Assembly: GCA_964242335.1 (NCBI GenBank)
Contig: CAXTAY010000003.1
Coordinates: 105,069-169,068 of the forward strand
From: an uncultured Acetobacteraceae bacterium
Lineage (GTDB): Bacteria; Pseudomonadota; Alphaproteobacteria; Acetobacterales; Acetobacteraceae
DNA length: 64,000 bases
Direction: 5' to 3'
The position numbers and the translations under genes were made by a program. Shown one piece after another: positions 16,583 through 36,278 of the stretch. The notes under the pieces were generated by a model. That model saw only the letters and a list, made by a program, of their open reading frames with translations, made no database searches and had not been told where the DNA came from. How positions within the stretch are numbered: the first letter of the stretch is position 1; each line of letters begins with the position of its first letter.

Positions 16583-18247
16583 CTAGGAGGGGACCGTCGC
16601 GCCGCCCGCGCGGGCCAGTTCCTCCTCCTCCAGCAGGGCCTTCTTCGACAGCTTGCCGATGATCGTCTTGGGCAGCACCTCGCGTATGACGATCTCGCTC
16701 GGCAGCTCGATCTTCGAGACATGGTCGCAGAGGAACAGGCGAAGCTCCTCCGGGGTGGCCGCCTGCTCGGGCCGCAGGCTCACGAACGCCTTGGGCTTCT
16801 GGCCACGATGCCGATCCGGCACGCCGATCACCACCGCCTCGGCCACCGCCGGGTGCGTGTACAGCGCCTCCTCCACCACCCTCGGATACACGTTGTAGCC
16901 GCCGCACAGGATCAGGTCCTTGATCCGGTCGACCAGGAACAGGTAGCCGTCCCGATCGAGGTAGCCGACATCGCCGGTGCGGAAATACCCCTCGACGAGC
17001 GCGTCCCGCGTGTCCTGCGGGCGGTTCCAGTAGCCCTTCATCACCTGCGGCCCACGCACCCAGACCTCGCCGCGCTCGCCCTGCGGCATGACCCGGTGCG
17101 GCGGCTCCAGCGCCCGTATCGAGAGCTCGGTATCGACCAGCGCCTGTCCGCAGGAACCGTCCCGCTCCTCCCCGGGCGGCGTCATGGTGACGACCGGCGA
17201 GGTCTCGCTCAGGCCGTAGCCTTCCCGCACCCGGCAGCCGGTCAGCCGCTCGAACTCCGCGCGGATCTCCGCGGGCAGCGGTGCGCCGCCCGAGTTGCAC
17301 AGGCGGAGCGATCGCAGGTGCGACGGGTTCAGTGCCTTGAAGCGCGCGAGCGCACCGAAGATGGTGGGCACGCCGGACATCACGGTCGCCCGCGTGCGCC
17401 GGATCGTCGCGATCAGCTGGCGGATCTCGAAGCGCGGCAGCAGGATCATGCGGCCGCCGATCTCCAGCGTGAGCATCATCACGCAGAGCATGGCGAAGAC
17501 ATGGAACAGCGGCAGCACGCCGATGACGGTGTGCGGTCCGCGGAGCGTGGCGCCCATCCCGATCCGGGTCTGCCTGATGTTGGCCAGAACGTTCGCATGG
17601 GTCAGCATCGCCGCCTTCGGCACGCCGGTGGTGCCGCCGGTGTACTGCATGATCGCGACGTCCTCCCGGGGATCGAGGCGAACCGGACGCAGCGCGCCCG
17701 GAGCCGCGATCAGCTCGCGGAAATCGACGAACAGGCTGCCACGCAGGCCAGAGGCGATCTCGCTCCGGCGCAGCGTGCGGAACAGGATGCGCTTGAACGG
17801 CGGCAGGCCGCCTGCGAAGTCGCAGGTGACGATCCGGCGCACCGCGGCCGCCTGCGCCGCACCCACGCCCTTCCCGCTGATCGCGACCAGGTTCGGCAGC
17901 ACCAGGATCTCGGCGCCGGAATCCTGCAGCAGCGCGGTCAGCTCCTTCTCGACGTAGAGCGGGTTGAGGGCGACGGCGATGCCGCCGGCACGCAGCACCG
18001 CGAAGAACATGGCGACGGCGTAGAGGGTGTTCGGCAGGCAGATCGCCACCCGCGTTCCGGGAACCACCCCCTCGGCCTGCAGGCCGACCGCGGCGCGCTC
18101 GACCACACGACCGAGTTCGGCGTAGGTCGTCCTGCGGCCGAGGAAGTCGATCACGGTTTTGTCGGCATTGCGCGATACCGAGCGGGCGAAGAACTGCGCC
18201 AGACCGTCCGACTCCGCGAGATCCGCGATCACCTCACCGTCGTCCAT
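16583..18247 (-). CDS. Long-chain-fatty-acid--CoA ligase (AMP-binding enzyme)
   Basis: ORF 16583..18307. The ATG at 18247 is preceded by AGGAA. AMP-binding motifs are present (MQYTGGTTGVPKAAMLTH; YGLSETSP; TGDVGYLDRDGYLFLVDRIKD; KLSKK). Confidence 0.9.
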   Translation of the reverse strand: MDDGEVIADLAESDGLAQFFARSVSRNADKTVIDFLGRRTTYAELGRVVERAAVGLQAEGVVPGTRVAICLPNTLYAVAMFFAVLRAGGIAVALNPLYVEKELTALLQDSGAEILVLPNLVAISGKGVGAAQAAAVRRIVTCDFAGGLPPFKRILFRTLRRSEIASGLRGSLFVDFRELIAAPGALRPVRLDPREDVAIMQYTGGTTGVPKAAMLTHANVLANIRQTRIGMGATLRGPHTVIGVLPLFHVFAMLCVMMLTLEIGGRMILLPRFEIRQLIATIRRTRATVMSGVPTIFGALARFKALNPSHLRSLRLCNSGGAPLPAEIRAEFERLTGCRVREGYGLSETSPVVTMTPPGEERDGSCGQALVDTELSIRALEPPHRVMPQGERGEVWVRGPQVMKGYWNRPQDTRDALVEGYFRTGDVGYLDRDGYLFLVDRIKDLILCGGYNVYPRVVEEALYTHPAVAEAVVIGVPDRHRGQKPKAFVSLRPEQAATPEELRLFLCDHVSKIELPSEIVIREVLPKTIIGKLSKKALLEEEELARAGGATVPS

Positions 18248-18325
18248 CTGTGTTTCCTGTCCCTGTCGCTTCGCCGCCGCGAGGATGTCGTGCGCAGGCC
18301 TCGGCACGTCGCGGCAGCCGCCCGC

Positions 18326-25362: not shown

Positions 25363-26853
25363 ATGCTGCACATGCCGATACCCGACGAGTCCGTGCTGTC
25401 GCGGCGCGCCGAGATCGTCGCTGCCCTCCGGCGCATCGTCCCGGGCGAGGGGGTGATCGACGCCGAGGAGGAGCGCCGCGTCTACGAGAGCGACGCCCTC
25501 AGCGCCTACCGTACCCTGCCGCTGGTGGTGGTGCTGCCGGAGACCACCGAGCAGGTGGCCCGCATCCTGCGCTACTGCAGCGATGCCGGGGTGAAGGTGG
25601 TGCCGCGCGGCGCCGGCACCTCGCTTTCCGGCGGCGCGCTGCCGCTGGAGGACGGGGTGCTGCTCGGCATGGGCAAGTTCCGGCGCATCCTGGAGGTCGA
25701 CATCGCCAACCGCTGCGTGGTGGTTCAGCCCGGGGTGACCAACCTCGGCATCACCCACGCGGTGCAGGATCGCGGCTTCTACTATGCGCCCGACCCGTCG
25801 AGCCAGATCGCCTGCACCATCGGCGGCAACGTCGCCGAGAACTCGGGCGGCGTGCACTGCCTGAAATACGGGCTGACCACCAACAACGTGATCGGCATCG
25901 AGATGGTGACGATGCAGGGCGAGGTGATCCGGCTCGGCGGCAAGCATCTCGACAGCGCCGGCTACGACCTGCTCGGCGTGATGGTCGGCTCCGAGGGCCT
26001 GCTCGGCGTGGTGACCGAGGTGACGGTGCGCATCCTGCCCAAGCCGCCGGGCGCGCGGGCGCTGCTGATCGGCTTTCCCTCCATCGCCGGTGCCAGCGAG
26101 GCGGTGGCGGCGGTGATCGGCGCCGGCATCATCCCCGGCGGGATGGAGATGATGGACCGGCTGGCGGTGCAGGCCGCGGAGGCGTTCGCGCATGCCGGCT
26201 ACCCGCTCGACGCCGAGGCGCTGCTGATCGTCGAGCTGGATGGCTGCGAGGCGGAGCTGGACCACCTGATCGCCGCGGTGGAGGCGATCGCGGCCGCGCA
26301 CGGCGCCACCACCTGCCGGGTCAGCCGCAGCGAGGAGGAGCGGCTGCTGTTCTGGGCCGGACGCAAGGCGGCGTTCCCCGCCGTCGGCCGGCTGTCGCCC
26401 GACTATTTCTGCATGGACGGCACCATCCCGCGCCGCCGCCTCGGCGACGTGCTCGCGCGCATGAAGCAGATGGAGGGCGAGTACGGCCTGCGCGTCGCCA
26501 ACGTGTTCCATGCCGGCGACGGCAACCTGCACCCGCTGATCCTCTACGACGCCAACCGGGAGGGCGAGCTGGAGCGCGCCGAGGCGTTCGGCAACGACAT
26601 CCTGCGGCTCTGCGTCGAGGTCGGCGGCGTGCTGACCGGCGAGCACGGCGTCGGCGTCGAGAAGCGCGACCTGATGGGCACGATGTTCGACGCAGCCGAC
26701 CTGGACCAGCAGATGCGGCTGAAATGCGCCTTCGATCCGGCCAGCCTGCTCAACCCCGGCAAGGTGTTCCCGCAGCTCTGCCGCTGCGCCGAGCTGGGTC
26801 GCGTGCACGTCCATGCCGGCCAGGTCCGCTTCCCCGAGCTGCCGCGCTTCTAG
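25363..26853 (+). CDS. glcD: Glycolate oxidase subunit GlcD (FAD-linked oxidase)
   Basis: ORF 25363..26853, 496 aa, with an FAD-binding PCMH domain (VVPRGAGTSLSGG) and the C-terminal block GEHGVG..K. Confidence 0.92.
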   Translation: MLHMPIPDESVLSRRAEIVAALRRIVPGEGVIDAEEERRVYESDALSAYRTLPLVVVLPETTEQVARILRYCSDAGVKVVPRGAGTSLSGGALPLEDGVLLGMGKFRRILEVDIANRCVVVQPGVTNLGITHAVQDRGFYYAPDPSSQIACTIGGNVAENSGGVHCLKYGLTTNNVIGIEMVTMQGEVIRLGGKHLDSAGYDLLGVMVGSEGLLGVVTEVTVRILPKPPGARALLIGFPSIAGASEAVAAVIGAGIIPGGMEMMDRLAVQAAEAFAHAGYPLDAEALLIVELDGCEAELDHLIAAVEAIAAAHGATTCRVSRSEEERLLFWAGRKAAFPAVGRLSPDYFCMDGTIPRRRLGDVLARMKQMEGEYGLRVANVFHAGDGNLHPLILYDANREGELERAEAFGNDILRLCVEVGGVLTGEHGVGVEKRDLMGTMFDAADLDQQMRLKCAFDPASLLNPGKVFPQLCRCAELGRVHVHAGQVRFPELPRF

Positions 26854-26882
26854 CTGCCATCCCGTCTTCAGGAGTGCCCGGC

Positions 26883-28130
26883 ATGACCGTGTTCCGACCG
26901 TCCGACGCCGCCGAGCTGCAGCAGGTCGTAGCCTCGGCCGCCGCCGCCTCGCAGCCGCTCGAGATCGTCGGCGGCGGCAGCAAGCGCCGGCTCGGCCGCG
27001 CGGAGCGTCCCGAGCACGCGCTCGAGCTCGGCGCATTGCGCGGCATCGTCGACTACGATCCTGCCGAGCTGGTGCTCACCGTCCGCGCCGCCACGCCGCT
27101 GTCGGAGGTGGCGCTGCAGCTCGCCGCACACCGGCAGATGCTGGCGTTCGAGCCGCCGGACTGGCGCGGCCTGCTGGGCAGCGACGCCGAACCGACCGCC
27201 GAACCGACCGCCGAACCAACCCTGGGCGGCGTGATCGCGTGCAACCTGTCCGGGCCGCGCCGGGTGCGCGCCGGTGCGGCCCGCGACCATCTGCTGGGCT
27301 TCTCGGCGGTGAATGGCTGGGGCGATGCCTGGAAGGCCGGCGGCCGCGTGGTCAAGAACGTCACCGGCTACGACATGTGCAAGCTGCAGGCCGGCGCCTT
27401 CGGCACGCTGTCGGTGCTCACCGAGCTCTCGCTGCGCGTGCTGCCGCGGCCCGAGACCGGCTGCAGCCTGCTGCTGACGGGCCTCGACGACCACGCCGCG
27501 GTCGGAGCCCTGGTCTCCGCCCTGAATTCCGAGCACGAGGTCTCCTCGGCCGCCCACCTGCCGGCCGCGGCGGCGGCCCGCTCGTCGGTGCCGGAGGTGG
27601 CCGAGGCAGCGCAGGGCGCCGCCGTGACCGTGCTGCGGCTCGAGGGGCCGCAGCCCTCGATCGCGTATCGCGCGGCCGCACTGGAGCGCGTGCTCGGCGC
27701 GGCGCATCGCCTGCCGGCGGCGGCGAGCGACGCGCTGTGGGCGGAAATCGGCGCGGCGCACACGCTGCTCGGCGGCGCCGGCATCGTGTGGCGGGTGTGC
27801 CCGACCCCCTCGGCCGCTCCGCAGGTGCTGCACCGGGTGCGCGATGCGCGGCCGGGCACGGAGGCGTTCTACGACTGGGGTGGCGGCCTGCTCTGGCTCG
27901 GACTCGACGCGGGAGCGGCCGGTGCGGACGGCGGCGCGTGCCTGATCCGTGCCGCCCTGCGCGAGGTCGGCGGACACGCGACCCTGATCCGCGCGCCCGA
28001 GGCGATGCGGGCGGCGGTCGCCGTGTTCGAGCCCTCCGAAGGCGCGCTGGAGGCTCTCGCCCGCCGGGTGAAGGGCAGCTTCGACCCCAGGGGCATCCTC
28101 AACCCAGGCCGCATGCAGCAGGGAGACTAG
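26883..28130 (+). CDS. glcE: Glycolate oxidase FAD-binding subunit GlcE
   Basis: ATG at 26883 (MTVFRPSDAAELQQVV) within ORF 25272..28130. GGGSKRRLG and KNVTGYDMCKL are GlcE-like. It lies between glcD and glcF. Confidence 0.88.
   Translation: MTVFRPSDAAELQQVVASAAAASQPLEIVGGGSKRRLGRAERPEHALELGALRGIVDYDPAELVLTVRAATPLSEVALQLAAHRQMLAFEPPDWRGLLGSDAEPTAEPTAEPTLGGVIACNLSGPRRVRAGAARDHLLGFSAVNGWGDAWKAGGRVVKNVTGYDMCKLQAGAFGTLSVLTELSLRVLPRPETGCSLLLTGLDDHAAVGALVSALNSEHEVSSAAHLPAAAAARSSVPEVAEAAQGAAVTVLRLEGPQPSIAYRAAALERVLGAAHRLPAAASDALWAEIGAAHTLLGGAGIVWRVCPTPSAAPQVLHRVRDARPGTEAFYDWGGGLLWLGLDAGAAGADGGACLIRAALREVGGHATLIRAPEAMRAAVAVFEPSEGALEALARRVKGSFDPRGILNPGRMQQGD
27186..27221 (+). repeat. In-frame 12-nt tandem repeat x3 inside glcE (encodes AEPT-AEPT-AEPT)
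   Basis: The sequence gccgaaccgacc gccgaaccgacc gccgaaccaacc has two perfect units and one unit with 1 mismatch. Confidence 0.9.
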
Positions 28131-28134
28131 CATC

Positions 28135-29430
28135 GTGCAGACCCGCTTCACCCCGACCCAGCTCGCCGACCCCGACACCGCGGAGTCCGCCAAGATCCTG
28201 CGTGCCTGCGTGCATTGCGGCTTCTGCACCGCGACCTGCCCGACCTACGCGCTGCTCGGCGACGAGCTCGACAGCCCGCGCGGCCGCATCTACCTGATCA
28301 AGGACATGCTGGAGAACGACCGCCCGGCCACCGAGAAGGTGGTCAAGCACGTCGATCGCTGCCTGTCCTGCCTGAGCTGCATGACCACCTGCCCGTCCGG
28401 GGTGAACTACATGCACCTGGTCGACCATGCCCGGCAGCACATCGAGAAGACCTACGTGCGCCCGTGGCCCGACCGCGCCATGCGCCGCCTGCTGGGCCTG
28501 GTGCTGCCGCGGCCGCTGCTGTTCCGCGCGGCACTGGAGGCGTCGCGGCTCGGCCGGCCGTTCGTCCGCCTCGCACCTCGCCTGATCCCCCGGCCGCTGC
28601 GCGGCCTGCTGGCGCTGGCGCCGGCTCGGGTGCCGCGAAGCTCCCCGGTCGATCGGCCGCAGGTGTTCCCGGCACTCGGCAAGCGGGTCAGACGGGTGGC
28701 GATCCTCAACGGCTGCGCCCAGCGCGTGCTGGCGCCGCAGATCAACGAGGCGACGATCCGGCTGCTGACCCGGCACGGCTGCGAGGTGGTGGTGGCGCGC
28801 GGCGCCGGCTGCTGCGGCGCGCTGACGCATCATCTGGGGCAGGAAGGCAATAACGCCGCCAGCGCCAACATCCTGGCCTGGGACCGGGAGATCCGTGCCG
28901 GCGGCCTCGATGCGATCGTGATCAACGCCTCGGGCTGCGGCACCACGGTCAAGGATTACGGCTTCATGTTCCGCGAGGACCCGGTGCTCGCCGGGCCGGC
29001 GTGCGCCGTCTCGGCCATGGCGCGCGACATCACCGAGCTGATGAGCGAGCTCGGGCTGCGCACGCCGGTGGTCGCGACCGGGCAGCGCGTCGCCTACCAC
29101 AGCGCCTGCTCGCTGCAGCACGGCCAGCAGGTCCGTGCGGAGCCGAAACGGCTGCTCGCCGCGGCCGGCTTCGAGGTGGTCGACGTGCCCGAGGGCCATC
29201 TCTGCTGCGGCTCCGCCGGCACCTACAACCTGCTGCAGCCGGAGATCGCGGGGCAGCTGCGCGACCGCAAGGTGGCAAACATCGAGCGCACCGCCCCCGA
29301 CCTGGTCGCCGCCGGCAACATCGGCTGCATCACCCAGATCGCGTCGGGCAGCAGGCTGCCGGTGATCCACACGGTGGAGCTGCTGGACTGGGCTACCGGC
29401 GGCCCCAGGCCGGAGCGTGTTCCGCACTGA
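28135..29430 (+). CDS. glcF: Glycolate oxidase iron-sulfur subunit GlcF
   Basis: ORF 28135..29430 with a GTG start. It has two 4Fe-4S motifs (CVHCGFCTATCP; CLSCLSCMTTCP) and CCG domains (HLCCGSAG). Confidence 0.9.
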   Translation: MQTRFTPTQLADPDTAESAKILRACVHCGFCTATCPTYALLGDELDSPRGRIYLIKDMLENDRPATEKVVKHVDRCLSCLSCMTTCPSGVNYMHLVDHARQHIEKTYVRPWPDRAMRRLLGLVLPRPLLFRAALEASRLGRPFVRLAPRLIPRPLRGLLALAPARVPRSSPVDRPQVFPALGKRVRRVAILNGCAQRVLAPQINEATIRLLTRHGCEVVVARGAGCCGALTHHLGQEGNNAASANILAWDREIRAGGLDAIVINASGCGTTVKDYGFMFREDPVLAGPACAVSAMARDITELMSELGLRTPVVATGQRVAYHSACSLQHGQQVRAEPKRLLAAAGFEVVDVPEGHLCCGSAGTYNLLQPEIAGQLRDRKVANIERTAPDLVAAGNIGCITQIASGSRLPVIHTVELLDWATGGPRPERVPH

Positions 29431-29498
29431 GAACCATCGCGACATCAACGAGAAACCAACGAGAAACCAACAAGAGACGACGAGCAGGGGAGGAACCG

Positions 29499-31148
29499 AT
29501 GTTCAGGCAACTCTTGACCCCGGTGGGCGACAGCCTCGCGCTGTCGTTCCTGGTCGCCGCGTTGCCGATCGCGCTGGTGCTGGTGATGCTCGGCGTGCTG
29601 CGGCGGCCGGCGTGGCAGGCGTCCCTCGGCGGCCTGCTGCTCGCCTTCGCCATCGCCGTGCTGATCTGGCGCATGCCGCTCCGGCTGGCGCTGGACGCGG
29701 TCGCCGCCGGCGTCACCTTCGCGCTGTGGCCGGTGATGTGGATCGTCTTCAACGCGCTGCTGCTCTACAACATCGCTGTCCTCTCCGGCCGCTTCGATGC
29801 CTTCCGCGACTGGGTGCTGGAGCATCTGCCGAACGACCGACGGGTGGTGCTGGTGGTCATCGGCTTCTGCTTCGGCTGCCTGCTGGAGGGCATCTCCGGC
29901 TTCGGCACCCCGGTCGCCATCACCAGCGCGCTGCTGATCCTGGTCGGATTCCCGCCGATCGAGGCGCTGACCTTCACCCTCATCTTCAACACGGCACCGG
30001 TCGCGTTCGGGGCACTCGGCGCGCCGGTCACCGTGCTCGGCCAGGTCACCGGCCTGCCGGCGGTGACGCTCGGGGCGATGATCGGGCGGCAGCTGCCGTT
30101 CCTGGCGATGCTGCTGCCGTTCTACGTGATGGCGATCTATGGCGGCCTGCGCTCGGTGCGGGCACTCTGGCCGGTGCTGCTGGTCGCCGGCGGCAGCTTC
30201 GCCGTGGCGCAGTTCGTCGCCTCGAACTTCCTCGACTACGCGCTGACCGACGTCCTCTCCTCGCTGGCGGCACTGCTGCTGACGCTGCTGTTCCTGCGCG
30301 TCTGGTCGCCGCGCCCGGATCCCGAGTTCGCCATCCCCGTCTCCGTGGTGCGTCCGGTCGGACGGCTGCTCGGCGCGCGCGCCGTGGGCGCCGACGTGGT
30401 GCACGAGCCGATCCCGGCTTCGGTGCCGGGCTGGCAGGGCTGGATCCCCTGGGTGGTGGTCTCGGCGGTGGTGATCGCCTGGACCCACCTGAAGGTCTTC
30501 GCCTACGGCCAGCGCCTGATCCCGTGGCCGGGCCTGCACAACCAGGTGTTCATCAGCCTCTACGGCAAGCCGTACGCCGCGACCTGGGCGTTCCAACCGC
30601 TCGCGTCCGGCACCGCGATCCTGCTCTCGGCGATCATCACCGCGGCCCTGGTGGGCGTCGGGCCCGGGCGGTTCGCCCACGCGATCGCGCTCACCTGGCG
30701 GCAGAGCCGAATCGCGATCCTGACCGTGGCACTCATCATCGGGCTGGCCTACCTGATGAACTATTCCGGCCTGAACTACACGCTCGGGCTCGGCGTCGCC
30801 TCGGTCGGCATCGTCTTCCCGCTGGTCTCGGCCTTCCTGGGCTGGGTCGCGGTGTTCCTGTCCGGCAGCGACACCTCCGGCAACGCGCTGTTCGGCAACC
30901 TCCAGGTGGTGGCTGCACACCAGCTCGGCCTCAATCCGGTGCTGATCGCTGCCACCAATTCGTCGGGCGGCGTGATGGGCAAGATGATCTCGCCGCAGAA
31001 CATCGCCACCGGCGTCTCGGTGACCAGGCTCAAGGGCCAGGAGGGCGTCGTGTTCGCCCGCACCTTCAAGCACAGCATCGCGCTGACCATCCTCCTCGGG
31101 CTGCTGGTGCTGCTGGAGCAGTACGTCGTGCCTTGGATCATTCCCTAG
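29499..31148 (+). CDS. L-lactate/glycolate permease (LctP family)
   Basis: ATG at 29499, preceded by GGGGAGGAA, within ORF 29001..31148. The 549-aa protein is multi-TM and carries the LctP block CLLEGISGFGTPVAITSALL. Confidence 0.9.
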   Translation: MFRQLLTPVGDSLALSFLVAALPIALVLVMLGVLRRPAWQASLGGLLLAFAIAVLIWRMPLRLALDAVAAGVTFALWPVMWIVFNALLLYNIAVLSGRFDAFRDWVLEHLPNDRRVVLVVIGFCFGCLLEGISGFGTPVAITSALLILVGFPPIEALTFTLIFNTAPVAFGALGAPVTVLGQVTGLPAVTLGAMIGRQLPFLAMLLPFYVMAIYGGLRSVRALWPVLLVAGGSFAVAQFVASNFLDYALTDVLSSLAALLLTLLFLRVWSPRPDPEFAIPVSVVRPVGRLLGARAVGADVVHEPIPASVPGWQGWIPWVVVSAVVIAWTHLKVFAYGQRLIPWPGLHNQVFISLYGKPYAATWAFQPLASGTAILLSAIITAALVGVGPGRFAHAIALTWRQSRIAILTVALIIGLAYLMNYSGLNYTLGLGVASVGIVFPLVSAFLGWVAVFLSGSDTSGNALFGNLQVVAAHQLGLNPVLIAATNSSGGVMGKMISPQNIATGVSVTRLKGQEGVVFARTFKHSIALTILLGLLVLLEQYVVPWIIP

Positions 31149-31161
31149 CGGCGGAGGAGCA

Positions 31162-31210
31162 GGCAAGGGCTCTGCCCTCGACCCACTGGGGCCGGCGGCC
31201 CCAGACGTCG
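31162..31210 (+). repeat. GC-rich REP-like intergenic repeat, copy C
   Basis: The sequence ggcaagggctctgccctcgacccactggggccggcggccccagacgtcg begins 14 nt after the permease stop. It has hairpin 1 with one mismatch and hairpin 2, GGGGCC-GGC-GGCCCC. Confidence 0.7.
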
Positions 31211-31442
31211 ATTTGTAAAGGACGTGTTTCGATGGCTCGGCGATCCACCCTGTGAAGCAGGCGCGGAACCGGGCGCCGGGCTCGCGAACCTGAACCGTCC
31301 GGGCGCACGTTAAAACGCTGCCAATCGACGCTTTCACGTTGCGTTATAGCAATAGAATTGTCATAGCCGTTGCGGTTCCGGTCTAGGCACGCCCCGGACG
31401 ACGTCCAGCTTCCAGGGTGCCGAACCAAGAGCGCGCCGAGCC

Positions 31443-34400
31443 ATGAACCAGATGTCGCAGACCGCAGATCGGTATCCGACGATCGTCGGCGACGTCCCGC
31501 TCTCCCTGGTCTCGCCCGATCCTGCGCCGCCGACCGCGGCTCCGGACGGTTGCCGCGCGGACAGCTTCGCCCTGACCGATGCGTGCACGCAAGCGCTGCG
31601 CTTGCTCTGCCTGCGTGAGCAGGCCGGCTTCGACATGCTGCTGCTGGCCGGCTTCACGGCGCTGCTGCACCGCCGCCTCGCGCAGGACGAGGTTGCCCTC
31701 GCCGGCCTGACCGCGCGGCGTCCGCGACGATCCGGCGACGCGCCGGTCTGGCTCCGCGTCGCCCTGCGCACCGCGCCGTCCGCCGACCTGTCGTTCCGCG
31801 ACCACCTCGCGCAGCTGCGCTGCGCGGTGCGCGACGCGCTCGACCTCCCGGTGCTGTCTCCCGTGCCGGAGGCGGCCGAGCCGGGCGGCCGGCGTCGCCC
31901 GCCCCGCATCTCGTTCCTGATCGCGGGCGGGGAGGCACCATCCGACGGCCCGTTCGTCGCAGCCGGGATCGACCTCCACCTGGAGCCGGAGCAAACGCCG
32001 GAACGCCTCGGCGGCCGGCTGTTCTACCGTCCGGAAATGTTCGAGGCCGACGCGATCCAGGACATGATCGACCAGCTGGTCACGCTGCTGCAGGGCGCTG
32101 CCGACGATCCCGACTGTCCGCTCGGCGCCCTGCCGCTGCTGAGCGAGGCGGCGTCACGCCGGATGCGAACGGAGTGGGACACCGCGCGCCCGCTGCCGGA
32201 GACGACCCTGCACGCAGCCTTCGCGCTTCAGCTGGCACGCACACCCGATGCGCCGGCGGTCGAGTGCGAGGGGCAGGCCTGGAGCTATCGCGAGCTCGAC
32301 CGCAGGTCGCGCCAGCTATCTTCCTGCCTGGTCGCGTCGGGTGCCGGCCCCGGAACGGTGGTGGCGCTGTGCGTCGATCGGTCGCACGACATGGTGGCTG
32401 GGCTGCTCGCGATCCTCAGGACCGGCGCCGCCTATCTACCGCTGGATCCGGCGATGCCGCCGACGCGGCTGGCGCTGATCGCCGAGGATGCTCGCCCCAC
32501 GGTGCTGCTGACGACGAGTGCGCTGCAGGCGAGGCTGCCGGACATCGATGCCCGGATCGTCCTCGCCGAGGAGGCCGATCCTGTCCGGGAAGTCGCGCTC
32601 GCGGCCGATGCCGCGACGGATCCCGCGAGCCTCGCCTACGTCCTCTACACGTCGGGCTCCACCGGGCGGCCGAAGGGCGTCGAGGTGCCGCATCGCGCGG
32701 TCATCAACCTGCTGGCCGCGATGCGGCGCGAACCCGGCTTCGATGTCGCCGACTCGCTGCTCGCGGTGACCACCGTCTCGTTCGACATCGCCGTGCTCGA
32801 GCTGTTCCTGCCGCTGCTGAGCGGCGGCCGCCTGGTGCTGGCCACCCGTGACATCGCCCTCGACCCGAGGCGGCTGGCGGCCCTGCTGCGCCAATCGCGC
32901 TGCACCGTGATGCAGGCAACGCCAGCCACCTGGCGCGGGCTGCTCGAGATCGGGTGGGGCGGCGACCCCGATCTGCGCATCCTCTGCGGCGGCGAGGCGA
33001 TGCCGCGCGATCTCGCCGACAGGCTGCTGCCGCGCTGTGCTGCGCTGTGGAACCTGTACGGACCCACCGAGACCACCATCTGGTCGACGATCCACAGGGT
33101 CTCCCCGGGACCGGATCCGGTTCCCGTCGGCCGGGCGATCGACAACACCCGGACCTACCTGGTGGACCAGCGCGGCGCCCTGGTGCCGGACGGGGTCGTC
33201 GGCGAGCTGCTGATCGGCGGCATCGGCGTGGCGTGCGGCTACCGCGGCAACCCGGCGCTGACCGCGGAACGGTTCTTCGAAAGCCCGTTCGAAGCGAGAG
33301 AGCGCGTCTACCGTACCGGCGACCTGGTCCGGCGCCGCCGCGACGGGGCGATCGAGTGGCTCGCCCGCGCCGACAGCCAGATCAAGATACGCGGCTTCCG
33401 GATCGAGGCACAGGAGATCGAGGGCGTGCTGGAGCGCCATCCGGACGTCCTGTCCGCTGCGGTAAAGGCGTGGCCGGACGCGTCAGGGCAGCTGGCGCTG
33501 GCCGCCTACCTTGTGACACGGACCGGCGCGTTGCCGGAGCTGAAGCCGCTGCGTGCGTTCCTGCGGTGCGAGCTGCCGGACTACATGGTCCCGGCGCGCT
33601 ACCTCCCGCTCGCGGCCCTGCCGCTGACGCCGAGCCGCAAGCTGGATCGCAACGCCCTGCCGAAGCCGGACCAGCCCGCTGCGGGATCGGGCGACTCCGT
33701 TCCCGTCGGCGCGCGCGAGTGCCAGCTGGCCGCGCTGTGGGAGGAGCTTCTCGATCTCCGGGACGTGCGCCGGCACGACAGCTTCTTCGATCTCGGCGGC
33801 GACTCGCTGCAGGCGGTGACCTTGCTCGTGCGGATCGAGGCCCAGTTCGACCGGCGGCTCACCCTGGCCGCGCTGTTCCAGACGCCCACGATCGCCAGCA
33901 TGGCGGCGCTGCTGGACCAGGCCGAGGGCGAGACGGCGCTGCCGCTGGTGGCCGCGATTCAGCCGGAAGGCTCTCGGCCGCCGCTGTTCTGGATCGATGG
34001 CGGTCCGATGTTCCTGCCGCTGTCACGGGCCCTGGGCTCGGATCAGCCCTTCTTTGGCGTGACGCTGAACCCGGCCGAGCTGCAGCAGGTCGGGCCGCAG
34101 CCGGATCTCCAGACCATCGCGCGTCATCTGGTGCGGACCCTGCGCACGCTCCAGCCCGACGGCCCCTATCTCCTCGGCGGCTACTGCGCCGGCGGCGTGC
34201 TGGCCTACGAGGTGGCATCGCAGCTGGCCGATGCCGGCCAGGAGGTGCCCCTGCTGTGCCTGATCGACGCCCAGAACCCGGTCGATTTCCGGCGCATCGG
34301 CAGCCCCATGGTCGAGTTCGCCAGGCTTCGTCACCACCTCGACGCCGCCTTGCGCGCCGGCACCGGGACACGCTGGCGCTACCTCTCCAAGCATGCCGGC

Positions 34401-34736
34401 TCCGCCTACCGGCGCATCCTGTCGCGCGCGCCCTGGCGCTCGGTGATGACCAGCGAGCCCTTCACCCTGGGCGAGATCATGCAGCCTGCCGCCGACGCTC
34501 ATCGGCCGCGGCCGTATGCCGGAACGGTGGCGCTGTTCCAGGCACGGCGTCCGAAGCAGCTGGACCTTCGGCCGGGCTGGGCGAAGGTCGTCACCGGTCC
34601 GCTGCTCTGCCACGAGTTCCCGGGGGCGCACGGCACCATGCTGGAGCATCCGCAGGTGCTCGAGCTCGGCCGGCTGATGGGCGGCTGCCTCGATCGGGTG
34701 AGGCCAGGGCCCTGCCCTGGACCCGCTGGGGCCTGA
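31443..34736 (+). CDS. Single-module non-ribosomal peptide synthetase: truncated C domain - A (glycine code) - T - TE
   Basis: ORF 31443..34736, 1097 aa. A-domain cores are present (LAYVLYTSGSTGRPKGV; NLYGPTETT; YRTGDLVRRRRDGAIEWLARADSQIKIRGFRIE), as is the PCP motif FFDLGGDSLQ. The TE has GGYCAGG and a C-terminal GAHGTML. The first ~240 aa align only with the C-terminal lobe of a condensation domain, and no HHxxxDG motif is present. Confidence 0.9.
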   Translation: MNQMSQTADRYPTIVGDVPLSLVSPDPAPPTAAPDGCRADSFALTDACTQALRLLCLREQAGFDMLLLAGFTALLHRRLAQDEVALAGLTARRPRRSGDAPVWLRVALRTAPSADLSFRDHLAQLRCAVRDALDLPVLSPVPEAAEPGGRRRPPRISFLIAGGEAPSDGPFVAAGIDLHLEPEQTPERLGGRLFYRPEMFEADAIQDMIDQLVTLLQGAADDPDCPLGALPLLSEAASRRMRTEWDTARPLPETTLHAAFALQLARTPDAPAVECEGQAWSYRELDRRSRQLSSCLVASGAGPGTVVALCVDRSHDMVAGLLAILRTGAAYLPLDPAMPPTRLALIAEDARPTVLLTTSALQARLPDIDARIVLAEEADPVREVALAADAATDPASLAYVLYTSGSTGRPKGVEVPHRAVINLLAAMRREPGFDVADSLLAVTTVSFDIAVLELFLPLLSGGRLVLATRDIALDPRRLAALLRQSRCTVMQATPATWRGLLEIGWGGDPDLRILCGGEAMPRDLADRLLPRCAALWNLYGPTETTIWSTIHRVSPGPDPVPVGRAIDNTRTYLVDQRGALVPDGVVGELLIGGIGVACGYRGNPALTAERFFESPFEARERVYRTGDLVRRRRDGAIEWLARADSQIKIRGFRIEAQEIEGVLERHPDVLSAAVKAWPDASGQLALAAYLVTRTGALPELKPLRAFLRCELPDYMVPARYLPLAALPLTPSRKLDRNALPKPDQPAAGSGDSVPVGARECQLAALWEELLDLRDVRRHDSFFDLGGDSLQAVTLLVRIEAQFDRRLTLAALFQTPTIASMAALLDQAEGETALPLVAAIQPEGSRPPLFWIDGGPMFLPLSRALGSDQPFFGVTLNPAELQQVGPQPDLQTIARHLVRTLRTLQPDGPYLLGGYCAGGVLAYEVASQLADAGQEVPLLCLIDAQNPVDFRRIGSPMVEFARLRHHLDAALRAGTGTRWRYLSKHAGSAYRRILSRAPWRSVMTSEPFTLGEIMQPAADAHRPRPYAGTVALFQARRPKQLDLRPGWAKVVTGPLLCHEFPGAHGTMLEHPQVLELGRLMGGCLDRVRPGPCPGPAGA

Positions 34737-34760: not shown

Positions 34761-36278
34761 TCAAGGCCCGGAGGCTTTGCTCGCGGTCGCACCGACTCCC
34801 AGCCGTTCCTGGACGCCCCAGGATCGCGTGCCGCGCAGGAACGCCAGCCATCCGAGTGCGGCACCGGAATGCCGCAGCAGCTGGAAGCTGAACGGCTCCA
34901 GCAGCGCCGCCAGGATCGCCGGGAGCAGTCCGGTGCCGGGCGTGGCATCGATCCAGCGCCGGTAGACCCGCAGCGACCAGAGGTGGAAGGCGAGGTCGAT
35001 GACGATCTTGACCCCGATCGCCTCGGCGATCAGGCGCACGATGCCGATCTGGCCGGTGGCCAGGTAGCCGAACAGCAGCACCACCCCGGTCAGCCCGTAC
35101 AGCGGCTGCAGCGTGTCGATCGCCTTGACCGGGAGCATGGCGGTGCCGAGCCGGCCGTAGCGCGGGTTGCCGACCATGTGGCGATACCAGAGCTGCGTCT
35201 GGAGGAAGCCGCCGAACCAGCGACGGCGCTGCCGCAGGAAGGCGCCGGCCGTGCTCGGCGCGTCGGTTCGCGCGCGCGCGCTGCCGACGACGCCGGTGTG
35301 CCACACCTCGCCGCGCCGGCCGGCCTGATCGCGCAGGCGGTGGGTCAGCTCGTAATCCTCGACCAGGCAGTCCGGGTCGAAGCCGCCCACGGCGAGCAGC
35401 GCTCGTCGTCGGTAGCAGGCGAACGCGCCTGAGATCAGCAGCAGGCCGCCCACCCGCATCCAGGCGTAGCGCGAGAGGAAATTGCGCACGTACTCGTAGG
35501 TCTGGAACCACTGCAGCAACTGCGCCTGCGACGAGGGACCGCATACCGGCGTCAGCACCCCCGTCGCCGCCACCAGCGCCGGGTCGGCGGCGAAGGCGTC
35601 GCGCATCGCCCGCAGCGCCCCCGGCTCGAGCAGCGTGTCGGCATCGACCGTGAGCACCAGCTCGGTGTCGATCAGGGCGCAGGCGACGTTCAGCGCGCGT
35701 GCCTTGCCGCCGTGCGGCAGGCGCAACCAGCGCAAGGTCGGACAGGCCCTACTCGGCTCGCTCAACGCGCCCGGCGAAGGGACCAGACCGTACCGGTCCT
35801 GCAGCAGGCTCGCCGTCGCATCGTTCGAGCCGTCGTCTGCGATCACGATCGTCTGCGCGGGATGGGTTTGGGCGAGCAGGGCCGCGAGCGTGACCGGCAG
35901 GCTCGCCGCCTCGTTATGCGCGGCCACCAGGACGGCGACCGGCGGCAGCCGGCCCTCCGGGGCGCAGGCCTTGCCCGGGCGCAGCAGCGTCAGCGTCTGC
36001 CAGAACACGAAGGCGAGCAGCAGCGTGTCGTAGACGATGTAGGCGAGGCCGGCGGACCAGGCGAACAACCCGCCGCCGTGGAACGCGCGCGCGACCAGCA
36101 GCACCCAGAGCAGCAGCGCGCCGCCGTGGATCAGGGTGCTGCGCAGCGGCGTCGGCGGCGCATCGAACCGCGGCGAGGTGACCCGCCTGATCTGCGCCAG
36201 CTCCTGCTCGATCGCCGCGGCTTCCATGGGTTCCTCGTGGCGCTTTGCACCGCTGAGCCGGTCGGGCATCGTCCGCAT
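34761..36278 (-). CDS. Membrane-embedded processive glycosyltransferase family 2 (NodC/PgaC/cellulose-synthase-like)
   Basis: ORF 34761..36278, 505 aa. Motifs include VAVLVAAHNEA, IADDGSND, TVDADT, VEDYELT and LRQRRRWFGG (the Q(R/Q)xRW class). TM segments lie at both ends. Confidence 0.8.
   Translation of the reverse strand: MRTMPDRLSGAKRHEEPMEAAAIEQELAQIRRVTSPRFDAPPTPLRSTLIHGGALLLWVLLVARAFHGGGLFAWSAGLAYIVYDTLLLAFVFWQTLTLLRPGKACAPEGRLPPVAVLVAAHNEAASLPVTLAALLAQTHPAQTIVIADDGSNDATASLLQDRYGLVPSPGALSEPSRACPTLRWLRLPHGGKARALNVACALIDTELVLTVDADTLLEPGALRAMRDAFAADPALVAATGVLTPVCGPSSQAQLLQWFQTYEYVRNFLSRYAWMRVGGLLLISGAFACYRRRALLAVGGFDPDCLVEDYELTHRLRDQAGRRGEVWHTGVVGSARARTDAPSTAGAFLRQRRRWFGGFLQTQLWYRHMVGNPRYGRLGTAMLPVKAIDTLQPLYGLTGVVLLFGYLATGQIGIVRLIAEAIGVKIVIDLAFHLWSLRVYRRWIDATPGTGLLPAILAALLEPFSFQLLRHSGAALGWLAFLRGTRSWGVQERLGVGATASKASGP

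What the first reader, a model, noticed from the sequence alone, without database searches (positions are those of the whole stretch)
31443..34736. Orphan single-module NRPS: C-terminal lobe of a C domain only, A domain with an exact glycine specificity code, T, TE
Seen in the sequence: I aligned the A domain by hand to the GrsA-PheA numbering. FDIAVLE gives D235, I236, L239. TVMQATPA gives Q278. ILCGGEA gives L299, G301. NLYGPTETTIW gives L322, I330, W331. SRKLDR gives K517. The resulting code is DILQLGLIWK. Established knowledge: this is the canonical glycine code. The N-terminal ~240 aa match only the region of a condensation domain downstream of the active site, and no HHxxxDG motif exists anywhere in the protein. 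No other NRPS/PKS, MbtH, PPTase or tailoring gene lies nearby. The neighbours are a glycolate permease upstream and a convergent GT2 downstream. Inference: the gene is either a decaying fragment of a larger synthetase or a functional stand-alone Gly-loading/transfer enzyme that uses the half C domain as a docking or structural element.
Basis: partly seen in the sequence, partly recalled or inferred. Interest (0 to 1): 0.65.

Follow-up and report, generated by a model that had tools for sequence, protein, structure and literature searches.

The report
Orphan glycine-loading NRPS with vestigial half-domain
This is an intact, evolutionarily conserved one-gene enzyme from a lichen-type Acetobacteraceae bacterium that should activate glycine and hand it on through a cysteine thioesterase; it lost the catalytic half of its peptide-bond-forming domain long ago, and the leftover half is slowly decaying, so its product is unknown but it is not a dead gene.

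Summary
ORF 31443-34736 (+, 1097 aa) has only the C-terminal lobe of a condensation (C) domain and no HHxxxDG. It is followed by an intact A domain with pocket code DILQLGLIWK (Gly type), a T domain and a TE. No NRPS partner, PPTase or MbtH-like gene lies in the 64-kb window.

New findings:
- The gene belongs to a monophyletic clade of at least 11 genes (55-88% identity) that share one in-frame deletion of about 230 aa removing the C-domain N-lobe.
- The clade nests inside a large family of ~1340-aa single-module C-A(Gly)-T-TE enzymes, whose closest characterised relative is A. baumannii AB3403/A1S_0115.
- A, T and TE are under purifying selection (pooled dN/dS about 0.2). The half C domain is 2-3.5 times more relaxed (0.42-0.65) and has lost about 70-85% of its Pfam score. 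Two lineages have deleted it while keeping A-T-TE.
- The TE nucleophile is Cys (GYCAG) in all 60 family members. The T-core motif switched from GGHS to GGDS only in the truncated clade.
- The gene sits in at least six unrelated neighbourhoods. Two Lichenicoccus-like genomes share only the gene plus ~220 bp upstream.

Verdict: a functional stand-alone A(Gly)-T-TE(Cys) enzyme with a mostly vestigial half C domain. Its chemistry is unknown. It is a new variant of a known kind, of moderate interest.

The parts
31149..31442 (+). Upstream intergenic region, the presumed own promoter and leader
   Evidence: 294 nt lie between the permease stop and the ATG. In the L002/L253 pair, about 220 bp upstream of the start moves together with the gene. 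The sigma-70 consensus scan found nothing, so the promoter is not located.
31443..34736 (+). Whole gene: half-C, A(Gly), T, TE(Cys); 1097 aa plus stop
   Evidence: ORF; domains; an identical protein occurs on a second metagenome contig; an identical or 99.6% identical intact copy occurs in runs X1 and X2.
31443..31481 (+). N-terminal peptide (aa 1-13) retained from the ancestral C-domain N-terminus; the deletion junction lies after about aa 13
   Evidence: MNQMSQTADRYP aligns with M-N..LSDAKR of the full-length relatives, and the ~230-aa gap follows directly. Predicted disordered, pLDDT 25-37.
31482..32177 (+). Remnant of the C-terminal lobe of the condensation domain plus the C-A linker (aa 14-245); no catalytic motif
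   Evidence: Aligns to LgrA from residue 968 on and to P0016 residues 266-477. Scores 31.8 bits against Pfam Condensation versus 160-172 bits for the same segment in full-length relatives. dN/dS is 0.65 to 0.42 along its length. AF2 predicts a folded lobe for about aa 38-135 and 156-245.
32178..33677 (+). Adenylation domain (aa 246-745) with core motifs intact and pocket code DILQLGLIWK (D448 at nt 32784-32786, K733 at nt 33639-33641)
   Evidence: Pfam AMP-binding 1.5e-84 and TIGR01733 6.2e-126. Motifs A3 YTSGSTGRPKG, A5 NLYGPTE, A7 YRTGD, A8 ARADSQIKIRG and A10 KLDR are present. The code is kept in 10 of 10 clade members. Pooled dN/dS is 0.21.
33678..33932 (+). Thiolation (carrier) domain (aa 746-830); phosphopantetheine site Ser788 in GGDSL (nt 33795-33809)
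   Evidence: Pfam PP-binding 1.2e-15. GGDS occurs in 10 of 10 truncated-clade members and GGHS in 49 of 50 full-length relatives. Pooled dN/dS is 0.18.
33933..34733 (+). Thioesterase domain (aa 831-1097) with Cys915 (GYCAG, nt 34185-34187), Asp942 (nt 34266-34268) and His1063 (nt 34629-34631)
   Evidence: Pfam Thioesterase 5.1e-20. Cys915 and Gly913/918 are invariant in all 60 sequences and His1063 is nearly invariant (motif table). It aligns with the NocB and AB3403 TE domains, and AB3403 also has GGWCFGG. It is the most conserved domain across the truncated clade as a whole (mean pairwise identity 0.75; pooled dN/dS 0.18).
29499..31148 (+). Neighbour, not part of the system: lactate/glycolate permease, last gene of a glcDEF-permease block
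   Evidence: Pfam Lactate_perm 4.7e-129; gene call. Related Acetobacteraceae genomes have glcDEF, sometimes with the permease, but no NRPS.
34761..36278 (-). Neighbour, probably unrelated: convergent family-2 glycosyltransferase
   Evidence: Pfam GT2 families. It is convergent, with 24 nt between the two gene ends. It is syntenic only in the closest relatives (L001, L087, L171) and absent next to the gene in L002, L253, L085, L086, L088, L089 and L172.

Best explanation
The gene encodes a functional, self-contained A(Gly)-T-TE(Cys) enzyme. It descends from an AB3403-type single-module C-A(Gly)-T-TE synthetase through one ancient in-frame deletion that removed the whole N-terminal lobe of the C domain, including HHxxxDG and the acceptor-carrier docking site. 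What is shown: the deletion is shared and old; A, T and TE are intact and under purifying selection; the leftover C-lobe is under much weaker constraint and can be lost; the gene occurs alone in unrelated neighbourhoods. What is inferred, as the likely mechanism: the A domain adenylates glycine and loads it on the phosphopantetheine arm at Ser788. With no C domain and no upstream donor, the glycyl thioester passes to Cys915 of the TE by transthioesterification. The TE is now the only bond-forming catalyst. It passes the glycyl group to a nucleophile that is not an NRPS intermediate: either an external amine or hydroxyl acceptor, or the amine of a second glycyl-S-T, which would give Gly-Gly or its diketopiperazine. 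The C-lobe remnant, especially its last ~70 residues and the C-A linker, most likely persists for two reasons. The start codon lies upstream of it, so its reading frame has to stay open. It also still packs against the A-domain core.
For: - Shared deletion: seven ~1100-aa relatives lack the same ~230-aa block and keep the first ~13 aa. Two apparently short genes turned out to be artefacts, a scaffold N-gap in L171 and a late start call in L089.
- Monophyly: in a tree built from A-T-TE columns only, the clade is monophyletic and nested in the ~1340-aa family.
- Selection in close pairs: dN/dS is A 0.13-0.25, T 0.11-0.27, TE 0.11-0.22, against 0.46-0.64 for the remnant. Pooled values run 0.65 to 0.42 across the remnant and 0.18-0.21 for A, T and TE.
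- Strain level: in run X2, 9 synonymous against 3 non-synonymous codon changes and no frame-breaking indel.
- Reversed conservation pattern: in full-length relatives the C-lobe is as conserved as the A domain or more so, and the TE is least conserved. In the truncated clade the remnant is least conserved, and the TE is the most conserved domain across the clade as a whole.
- Remnant decay: Pfam score 26-60 bits against 160-172 bits.
- Remnant loss: L088 and L172 lack it but keep A-T-TE, with TE dN/dS 0.17.
- Catalytic motifs and Gly code are intact in 10 of 10 members; the GGHS to GGDS switch is fixed only in this clade; Cys is the TE nucleophile in 60 of 60.
- Autonomy: at least six unrelated neighbourhoods. 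L002 and L253 share only the gene plus ~220 bp upstream.
- Ancestral logic: full-length relatives sit with an A-T loader, a P450 and a PPTase. AB3403 prefers Gly and takes its donor from a free-standing adenylating enzyme and carrier protein (PMC10510592; PMC5376624).
- In ObiF1, a GXCXG TE takes its substrate by transthioesterification (PMC6668435).
Against: - There is no expression or biochemical evidence: no RNA run holds the gene and no promoter was found.
- No PPTase is nearby, so the T domain would depend on a PPTase encoded elsewhere.
- A glycyl-S-T with only a TE could simply be hydrolysed, which would be a futile cycle. The acceptor is not identified, and no conserved neighbour hints at one.
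- NG86 dN/dS in a 70% GC genome is approximate, and the full-length control pairs were saturated.
- The remnant's dN/dS stays below 1 and 9 of 11 lineages keep it, so some function of the remnant is not excluded.
- The AF2 confidence for the remnant comes from an alignment dominated by full-length homologues.
Confidence: 0.68

Rival explanations
1. The half C domain is itself a selected functional element: a scaffold for the A-domain core, or a docking site for a donor carrier protein.
For: It is kept in frame in 9 of 11 lineages across about 45% sequence divergence. Its dN/dS is below 1, at 0.42-0.65, and constraint increases towards the A domain. AF2 predicts a folded lobe, and the model superposes on C-A didomain structures at 3.2-3.6 A rmsd. 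In known structures C and A-core form a stable platform, and the donor-PCP interface lies mainly on the C-terminal lobe (PMC10510592).
Against: Constraint is 2-3.5 times weaker than on A, T and TE. Most of the profile signal is gone, and motifs C5-C7 are degenerate. L088 and L172 removed it entirely and still keep a constrained A-T-TE. No candidate donor carrier lies near the gene in any of the neighbourhoods. The frame has to stay open anyway because the start codon lies upstream, which alone explains retention.
Confidence: 0.22
2. The enzyme is not truly stand-alone. It supplies glycyl-S-T in trans to a C domain or NRPS encoded elsewhere in the genome, or receives from one.
For: The ancestral family already works with a separately encoded loading protein. 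The T domain and TE are intact. Only 64 kb of this genome and +/-10 kb of the others could be inspected, so distant partners cannot be excluded. The change to GGDS at the carrier serine suggests a changed partner.
Against: The N-lobe that docks the module's own carrier at the acceptor site is gone (PMC10510592). The gene has moved as a single-gene unit into unrelated loci, and no NRPS component lies within +/-10 kb in any of at least six neighbourhoods.
Confidence: 0.18
3. It is a non-functional relic, a pseudogene in slow decay from a broken synthetase.
For: It lacks the catalytic half of the C domain, lacks all partner genes and a PPTase nearby, shows no expression evidence, and its N-terminal quarter is clearly eroding.
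Against: No stop codon or frameshift occurs in any of 11 genes; the one apparent break is an assembly N-gap. dN/dS is about 0.1-0.25 over 850 codons in several independent pairs. Every catalytic residue and the specificity code are retained in 10 of 10 members. The TE is more conserved than in the functional ancestors.
Confidence: 0.06

Closest known systems
AB3403 / A1S_0115 of Acinetobacter baumannii (PDB 4ZXH, 4ZXI), a single-module C-A-PCP-TE termination module of the Ac-505 pathway
   Same: It is a single-module NRPS with a Gly-preferring A domain (crystallised with AMP and Gly; Gly was the best of 20 amino acids tested) and a TE with Cys at the nucleophile position (GGWCFGG). It matches by sequence at E 9.9e-132 over query aa 187-948 and is the second-best structural match.
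   Different: AB3403 has a complete, active C domain and sits in an operon with an acyl-AMP ligase, an ACP, a dehydrogenase, an efflux pump and a PPTase. The window gene lacks the N-lobe with HHxxxDG, has no partner genes, and has GGDS rather than GGHS at the carrier serine.
The uncharacterised ~1340-aa alphaproteobacterial C-A(Gly)-T-TE(Cys) family (for example P0031, P0016, P0087 of Faunimonas pinastri; also Sphingomonas pruni) with its A-T, P450, PPTase and luciferase-like monooxygenase cluster
   Same: This is the direct evolutionary source. It is 45-50% identical over 98% of the query, has the same Gly code in 41 of 50 members, the same Cys TE and the same N-terminal peptide.
   Different: These proteins have a full C domain (the C-lobe alone scores 160-172 bits), a GGHS carrier motif, mostly His rather than Asp at the TE position 27 residues after the Cys, and a conserved biosynthetic neighbourhood.
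GXCXG thioesterase domains of ObiF1 (obafluorin) and SulM (sulfazecin)
   Same: Cysteine replaces serine as the TE nucleophile. The substrate reaches it by energy-neutral transthioesterification from the carrier (PMC6668435; PMC11298585 listed).
   Different: Those TEs close strained beta-lactone or beta-lactam rings on beta-substituted residues, and glycine offers no such chemistry. ObiF1 places its catalytic Asp on a different strand, whereas here Asp942 has the canonical nucleophile+27 spacing. No special sequence closeness was seen: ObiF1 ranks below EntF, AB3403 and SrfA-C.
SyrC / CmaE aminoacyl-transferases and the DltA/DltC D-alanylation logic (from my own knowledge, not tested here)
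   Same: These are a functional analogy for the proposed mechanism. An adenylating enzyme loads a small amino acid on a carrier, and an alpha/beta-hydrolase (with an active-site Cys in SyrC and CmaE) or a transferase moves it to a non-peptide acceptor.
   Different: They are separate proteins, not a fused A-T-TE. Homology to them was not examined, and no acceptor is known here.
A-T-TE 'NRPS-like' enzymes (bacterial RalA; fungal TdiA and AtrA type quinone/furanone synthetases; from my own knowledge)
   Same: They share the effective three-domain layout A-T-TE, in which the TE is the only bond-forming catalyst and couples two carrier-bound units.
   Different: Those enzymes activate aryl alpha-keto acids and lack the Asp235 that binds the alpha-amino group. 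The window protein keeps Asp (D448) and Lys (K733) and a Gly-type pocket, and it reached its layout through a recent domain deletion.

Membership tests
Canonical NRPS C-A-T-TE termination module (AB3403 / EntF / SrfA-C type) | Complete condensation domain with both lobes and the HHxxxDG active-site motif | tested here: not met
   Only the C-lobe is present. No HHxxxDG-like string occurs in the protein. A ~230-aa block is missing relative to full-length relatives.
Canonical NRPS C-A-T-TE termination module (AB3403 / EntF / SrfA-C type) | Adenylation domain with core motifs A3, A5, A7, A8 and A10 | tested here: met
Canonical NRPS C-A-T-TE termination module (AB3403 / EntF / SrfA-C type) | Carrier domain with a GGxS phosphopantetheinylation site | tested here: met
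   GGDSL with Ser788. Note the D where relatives have H.
Canonical NRPS C-A-T-TE termination module (AB3403 / EntF / SrfA-C type) | Type I thioesterase with a nucleophile-Asp-His triad | tested here: met
   Cys915, Asp942 and His1063 by alignment. Triad geometry was not checked in the model.
Canonical NRPS C-A-T-TE termination module (AB3403 / EntF / SrfA-C type) | An upstream donor (a carrier-bound acyl or aminoacyl unit) encoded with it | tested here: not met
   None in the 64-kb window, nor within +/-10 kb in at least six other neighbourhoods.
Glycine-activating A domains | Specificity code of the DILQLG[LMV][IV]WK group | tested here: met
   DILQLGLIWK. The group is documented as Gly in PMC12283262 and PMC5466765.
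Glycine-activating A domains | Gly-dependent adenylation activity | not testable with these tools
   This needs an ATP-PPi exchange or hydroxamate assay. The relative AB3403 prefers Gly.
GXCXG (cysteine) thioesterase domains | Cys in place of Ser in the nucleophile elbow | tested here: met
   GYCAG. Cys is invariant in 60 of 60 family members and is also present in AB3403.
GXCXG (cysteine) thioesterase domains | Strained-ring (beta-lactone or beta-lactam) forming release | not testable with these tools
   Chemically implausible for glycine (inference).
A-T-TE NRPS-like alpha-keto-acid enzymes (RalA / TdiA type) | A domain lacking the alpha-amino-binding Asp235 | tested here: not met
   D448 (position 235) and K733 (position 517) are present. 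The defining feature itself is from my own knowledge.
Pseudogene / decaying fragment | Frameshifts, premature stops or neutral evolution (dN/dS near 1) across orthologues | tested here: not met
   None of 11 genes is disrupted. dN/dS is 0.1-0.25 for A, T and TE. Only the half C domain approaches relaxed values.

The most novel reading that the evidence does not exclude
The truncated clade is a previously unrecognised class of single-gene, self-sufficient glycyl-thioester enzymes in lichen-associated Acetobacteraceae. After the C domain was lost, the Cys thioesterase took over as the sole bond-forming catalyst, a case of neofunctionalisation marked by the GGHS to GGDS carrier switch and by tighter TE constraint. 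It would make a new small glycine-derived product, such as Gly-Gly, its diketopiperazine, or a glycyl conjugate of a cellular acceptor. The clade would then also be a natural experiment in how an NRPS module re-purposes itself after domain deletion.
Probability: 0.3. Interest if true: 0.65.

Novelty: new variant of a known kind. Interest (0 to 1): 0.45.

Why it matters
Genome-mining tools usually dismiss partial C domains at the start of orphan NRPS genes as debris. Here the truncation is old, inherited and followed by continued purifying selection on A-T-TE, a fixed change next to the carrier serine, tighter constraint on the Cys-TE and movement of the gene as a unit. That makes it a clean natural example of an NRPS module surviving loss of its condensation function. 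If the enzyme makes a defined glycine-derived product, it would show a minimal A-T-TE(Cys) route for amino-acid transfer or coupling, and it would tell NRPS engineers which part of a C domain an A domain can do without. It also points to the uncharacterised parent family, which has the layout of AB3403 from A. baumannii and is common in soil Alphaproteobacteria. If it only hydrolyses Gly-S-T, the finding is of little consequence.

Tried and rejected
- Upstream start or hidden N-lobe: rejected. The frame closes just upstream, the N-terminal peptide matches relatives, and tblastn finds no N-lobe in any frame.
- LgrA module 2 as a pocket reference: it is the best PDB hit but carries a non-canonical pocket (D-I-A-N-L-C-I-I-Y-K), so its rank reflects overall similarity, not the code.
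- Exact-string literature search for DILQLGLIWK: zero papers. Shorter strings gave two useful papers.
- Apparent variable truncations that would suggest pseudogenes: P0004 (756 aa) is a scaffold N-gap artefact and P0005 (977 aa) is a late start call. Only P0006 and P0010 are really shorter.
- Functional link to the GT2 or to the glc operon: rejected. The GT2 is convergent and syntenic only in the nearest relatives, and related genomes have glcDEF without the NRPS.
- Mobile-element explanation for the relocation: no flanking direct or inverted repeats beyond chance matches. No transposase was noticed in the gene tables.
- dN/dS control in the full-length family: the pairs are saturated (dS 0.6-2.9), so only the identity pattern was used.
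- Expression: no RNA run holds the sequence. The sigma-70 and terminator scan was uninformative.
- First genome scan with the window protein: it found only full-length relatives at or below 51% identity. A later scan with P0008 found the Lichenicoccus orthologue.

Full report
**1. What is in the sequence**

ORF 31443-34736 on the + strand encodes 1097 aa. Pfam and NCBIfam find an adenylation domain (AMP-binding aa 262-600, E 1.5e-84; TIGR01733 E 6.2e-126), AMP-binding_C (658-733), a carrier domain (PP-binding 761-824) and a thioesterase (856-1074). The only condensation-domain signal is aa 177-239 against profile positions 391-453 of 456, at 25 bits, below the gathering score. The best solved-structure match is LgrA, and the alignment starts at LgrA residue 968 for query residue 14, which is after the C-domain active site. 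A full C domain from a relative hits the window only with its residues 266-477, at nt 31560-32144. The protein has no HHxxxDG-like string. The reading frame cannot be extended upstream, and the first 13 residues match the N-termini of relatives.

The pocket residues, read from the A4, A5 and A10 anchors, are D448 I449 L452 Q491 L514 G516 L538 I546 W547 K733 = DILQLGLIWK. This lies within the documented glycine group. DILQLGMIWK is a Gly code, and 83 of 93 catalogued Gly domains vary only at positions 299, 322 and 330 (PMC12283262). DILQLGVI matches Gly in nocamycin (PMC5466765). The exact string was not found in the searchable library; that it is the textbook Gly code is from my memory. One addition: the TE nucleophile is cysteine (GYCAG, Cys915), not serine.

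**2. Orphan status**

I ran tblastn against the window with the partner proteins of the ancestral cluster (A-T loader, P450, PPTase, monooxygenase) and with a full C domain. It finds only the gene itself and a distant AMP-binding ORF at 16583-18307 (26% identity). Six-frame motif scans find no second carrier motif, MbtH core or Sfp-type motif. Upstream lies a glcDEF plus lactate/glycolate-permease block. Downstream lies a convergent GT2, then a cytochrome b, an enoyl-CoA hydratase and a nitronate monooxygenase-like gene. GlcD is up to 89% identical to Acetobacteraceae MAGs and 85% identical to a Lichenicoccus genome, so the organism is an Acetobacteraceae bacterium. Those related genomes have glcDEF, sometimes with the permease, but no NRPS or GT2 beside it.

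**3. The truncation is ancient, shared and derived**

A search of 5.8 billion proteins returned two kinds of relatives. Close ones (55-81% identity) are about 1100 aa. A large set at 45-50% identity is about 1340 aa and has a full Condensation domain. In alignment, the ~1100-aa proteins all lack the same ~230-aa block, which is the entire N-lobe including HHIIFDG. They keep the ancestral first dozen residues, so this was an in-frame internal deletion. A neighbour-joining tree built only from A-T-TE columns recovers the truncated proteins as one clade nested inside the full-length family.

Two apparently shorter members are artefacts. P0004 is split by a run of N in the scaffold. P0005 has an open frame with ATG starts about 400 nt upstream of the called start and keeps the remnant. 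Two members, P0006 (L088) and P0010 (L172), really lack almost the whole remnant: homology starts at query residue ~213, and the upstream gaps are only 323 and 445 nt. L172 still carries the clade's N-terminal MS..RDR peptide, which indicates a second in-frame deletion. With the Lichenicoccus orthologue, that makes 11 genes. Nine have the half C domain and two do not.

**4. Selection**

Nei-Gojobori estimates for close pairs:
- Window vs L001: remnant 0.64, A 0.24, T 0.11, TE 0.22.
- L002 vs L085: remnant 0.56, A 0.19, T 0.18, TE 0.13.
- L002 vs L253: remnant 0.46, A 0.13, T 0.20, TE 0.11.

Pooled over four close pairs, dN/dS falls along the remnant: 0.65 (aa 14-100), 0.51 (101-175), 0.46 (176-212) and 0.42 (213-245). 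It is 0.21, 0.18 and 0.18 for A, T and TE.

In the full-length family, dS is saturated, but the identity pattern is the reverse. The C-lobe is as conserved as the A domain or more so, and the TE is least conserved. In the truncated clade the remnant is least conserved, and the TE is the most conserved domain across the clade as a whole (mean pairwise identity 0.75).

The remnant's match to the Pfam Condensation profile has dropped from 160-172 bits, contiguous over positions 202-456 in full-length relatives, to 26-60 bits in fragments.

At strain level, run X1 holds an identical copy. Run X2 holds a full-length variant with 14 substitutions and no gaps. The 13 listed substitutions make 9 synonymous and 3 non-synonymous codon changes. 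The only indels in other runs are compensating pairs 3-4 nt apart.

**5. Clade-specific changes**

All ten truncated members examined keep a Gly-type code, DILQLG[L/M][I/V]WK. The residue before the carrier serine is Asp (GGDS) in 10 of 10 truncated members and His (GGHS) in 49 of 50 full-length relatives. Cys is the TE nucleophile in all 60. The position 27 residues after it is Asp in all truncated members but mostly His in the parent family. The GGHS to GGDS switch is what one would expect if the carrier no longer has to visit a C-domain acceptor site. This is an inference; the link between this motif and partner domains is from my own knowledge.

**6. Autonomy**

The gene lies in at least six unrelated neighbourhoods:
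- glcDEF/GT2 (window, L001, L087, L171).
- Inside a cobalamin cluster (L002).
- Another locus of a Lichenicoccus chromosome (L253).
- A hopanoid-like region (L085).
- Next to a succinyl-CoA-ligase-like pair (L086, L088).
- Next to PqiAB/MlaD genes (L089), and next to a glycoside hydrolase (L172).

L002 and the Lichenicoccus genome are 88.6% identical over 9 kb of the cob region. That homology stops about 1 kb upstream of the NRPS start. The orthologue sits 1.4 Mb away in the Lichenicoccus chromosome, and only the gene plus ~220 bp upstream is shared between the two loci. No flanking repeats explain the move. No conserved neighbour emerges.

**7. Ancestry and closest known enzyme**

Full-length relatives sit in a compact cluster: an A-T didomain, a P450, the C-A-T-TE gene, an Sfp-type PPTase and a luciferase-like monooxygenase. 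The closest characterised protein with the same layout is AB3403/A1S_0115 of A. baumannii. It is a C-A-PCP-TE module, crystallised with AMP and glycine, with glycine the preferred substrate. A free-standing adenylating enzyme and carrier protein feed it, and it is required for the acyl-Gly compound Ac-505 (PMC10510592; PMC5376624). Its TE also reads GGWCFGG. The AlphaFold model (mean pLDDT 82.9) matches EntF, AB3403, SrfA-C and ObiF1 best. Its half-C plus A-core superposes on Txo1 C-A didomains at 3.2-3.6 A rmsd. Residues 1-34 and 138-151 are predicted disordered and the rest of the remnant folded, but the alignment behind the model is dominated by full-length sequences.

**8. Interpretation**

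The data rule out a recent pseudogene and make a conserved docking function for the half C domain unlikely. The most economical reading is a functional A(Gly)-T-TE(Cys) enzyme whose N-terminal quarter is a vestige. The vestige persists because translation starts upstream of it and because its last ~70 residues and the linker still pack on the A-domain core.

The mechanism is inferred. Glycine is adenylated and loaded on Ser788. It then moves to Cys915 by transthioesterification, as described for the GXCXG TE of ObiF1 (PMC6668435). It is finally released to a nucleophile other than an NRPS intermediate: an external acceptor, or a second glycyl unit. I cannot tell which, and hydrolysis alone would be futile.

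The main alternatives are a partner encoded far away in the genome, which I could not test beyond +/-10 kb, and a residual structural role for the remnant.

**9. Novelty and score**

Partial C domains and single-module NRPSs are well known, and Gly codes and Cys-TEs are documented. Three things are new here. The truncated architecture defines a conserved, mobile, selected clade in lichen-type Acetobacteraceae. Its origin is a defined parent family. Domain loss was followed by signs of re-adaptation in T and TE. I rate it a new variant of a known kind, with interest 0.45. It would rise to about 0.65 if a specific TE-made glycine product is found (probability about 0.3).

Noticed in passing
L003 546-5268 and L004 3327-12418 (relatives, not in the window): The ~1340-aa full-length relatives sit in a conserved, apparently uncharacterised cluster: an A-T didomain (622 aa), a P450, C-A(Gly)-T-TE(Cys), an Sfp-type PPTase and a luciferase-like monooxygenase. 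The cluster is widespread in soil Alphaproteobacteria (Stellaceae, Pseudolabrys, Faunimonas pinastri, Sphingomonas pruni). It has the same logic as the A. baumannii Ac-505 operon.
   Followed up: partly
window 34185-34187 (Cys915); alignment A2: The thioesterase nucleophile is Cys (GxCxG) in all 60 family members and in AB3403 (GGWCFGG). The residue 27 positions later, where SrfTE-type enzymes have the catalytic Asp, is His in most full-length members and Asp in every truncated one.
   Followed up: partly
window 34761-36278 (-): A convergent family-2 glycosyltransferase (weak PgaC/IcaA-like, 505-aa ORF, called as 488 aa) ends 24 nt from the NRPS stop. In L087 the two genes overlap at their 3' ends. 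It is syntenic only in the closest relatives.
   Followed up: partly
window 25363-31148 (+): A glycolate oxidase glcD-glcE-glcF block is followed by a lactate/glycolate permease. L001, which is otherwise syntenic, lacks the permease.
   Followed up: partly
window 16583-18307 (-): A second AMP-binding (acyl-CoA-ligase-like) ORF of 574 aa, about 26% identical to the NRPS A domain. It has no carrier domain and is probably ordinary fatty-acid or acid-CoA metabolism.
   Followed up: no
L002 8978-13345 vs L253 9789-13338 and L173: Between two Lichenicoccus-like genomes (about 88% DNA identity) the NRPS gene with ~220 bp of upstream DNA lies at different chromosomal places, and synteny breaks close to the unit's edge. 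No repeats or transposase explain the relocation.
   Followed up: partly
L010 1553-5505 and L020 9284-13287: Two full-length-family genes in MAGs have interrupted reading frames: the ORFs end after 560 and 404 aa although homology continues. These are either real pseudogenes or assembly errors.
   Followed up: no
L171 about 1960-1970: The 756-aa 'short' homologue P0004 is an artefact of a 10-N scaffold gap inside the A domain. The gene is otherwise collinear with the window gene.
   Followed up: yes
PDB 6mfz/6mfy residues about 1411-1715 (LgrA module 2): The glycine module of LgrA, the best PDB hit overall, reads D-I-A-N-L-C-I-I-Y-K at the ten pocket positions in this alignment. It does not carry the canonical Gly code.
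   Followed up: no
L253 11186-11227: Three perfect tandem copies of a 12-nt unit (GGCATCATTCCG) lie inside the variable loop between A-domain motifs A2 and A3 of the Lichenicoccus orthologue. They encode a GIIP repeat.
   Followed up: no
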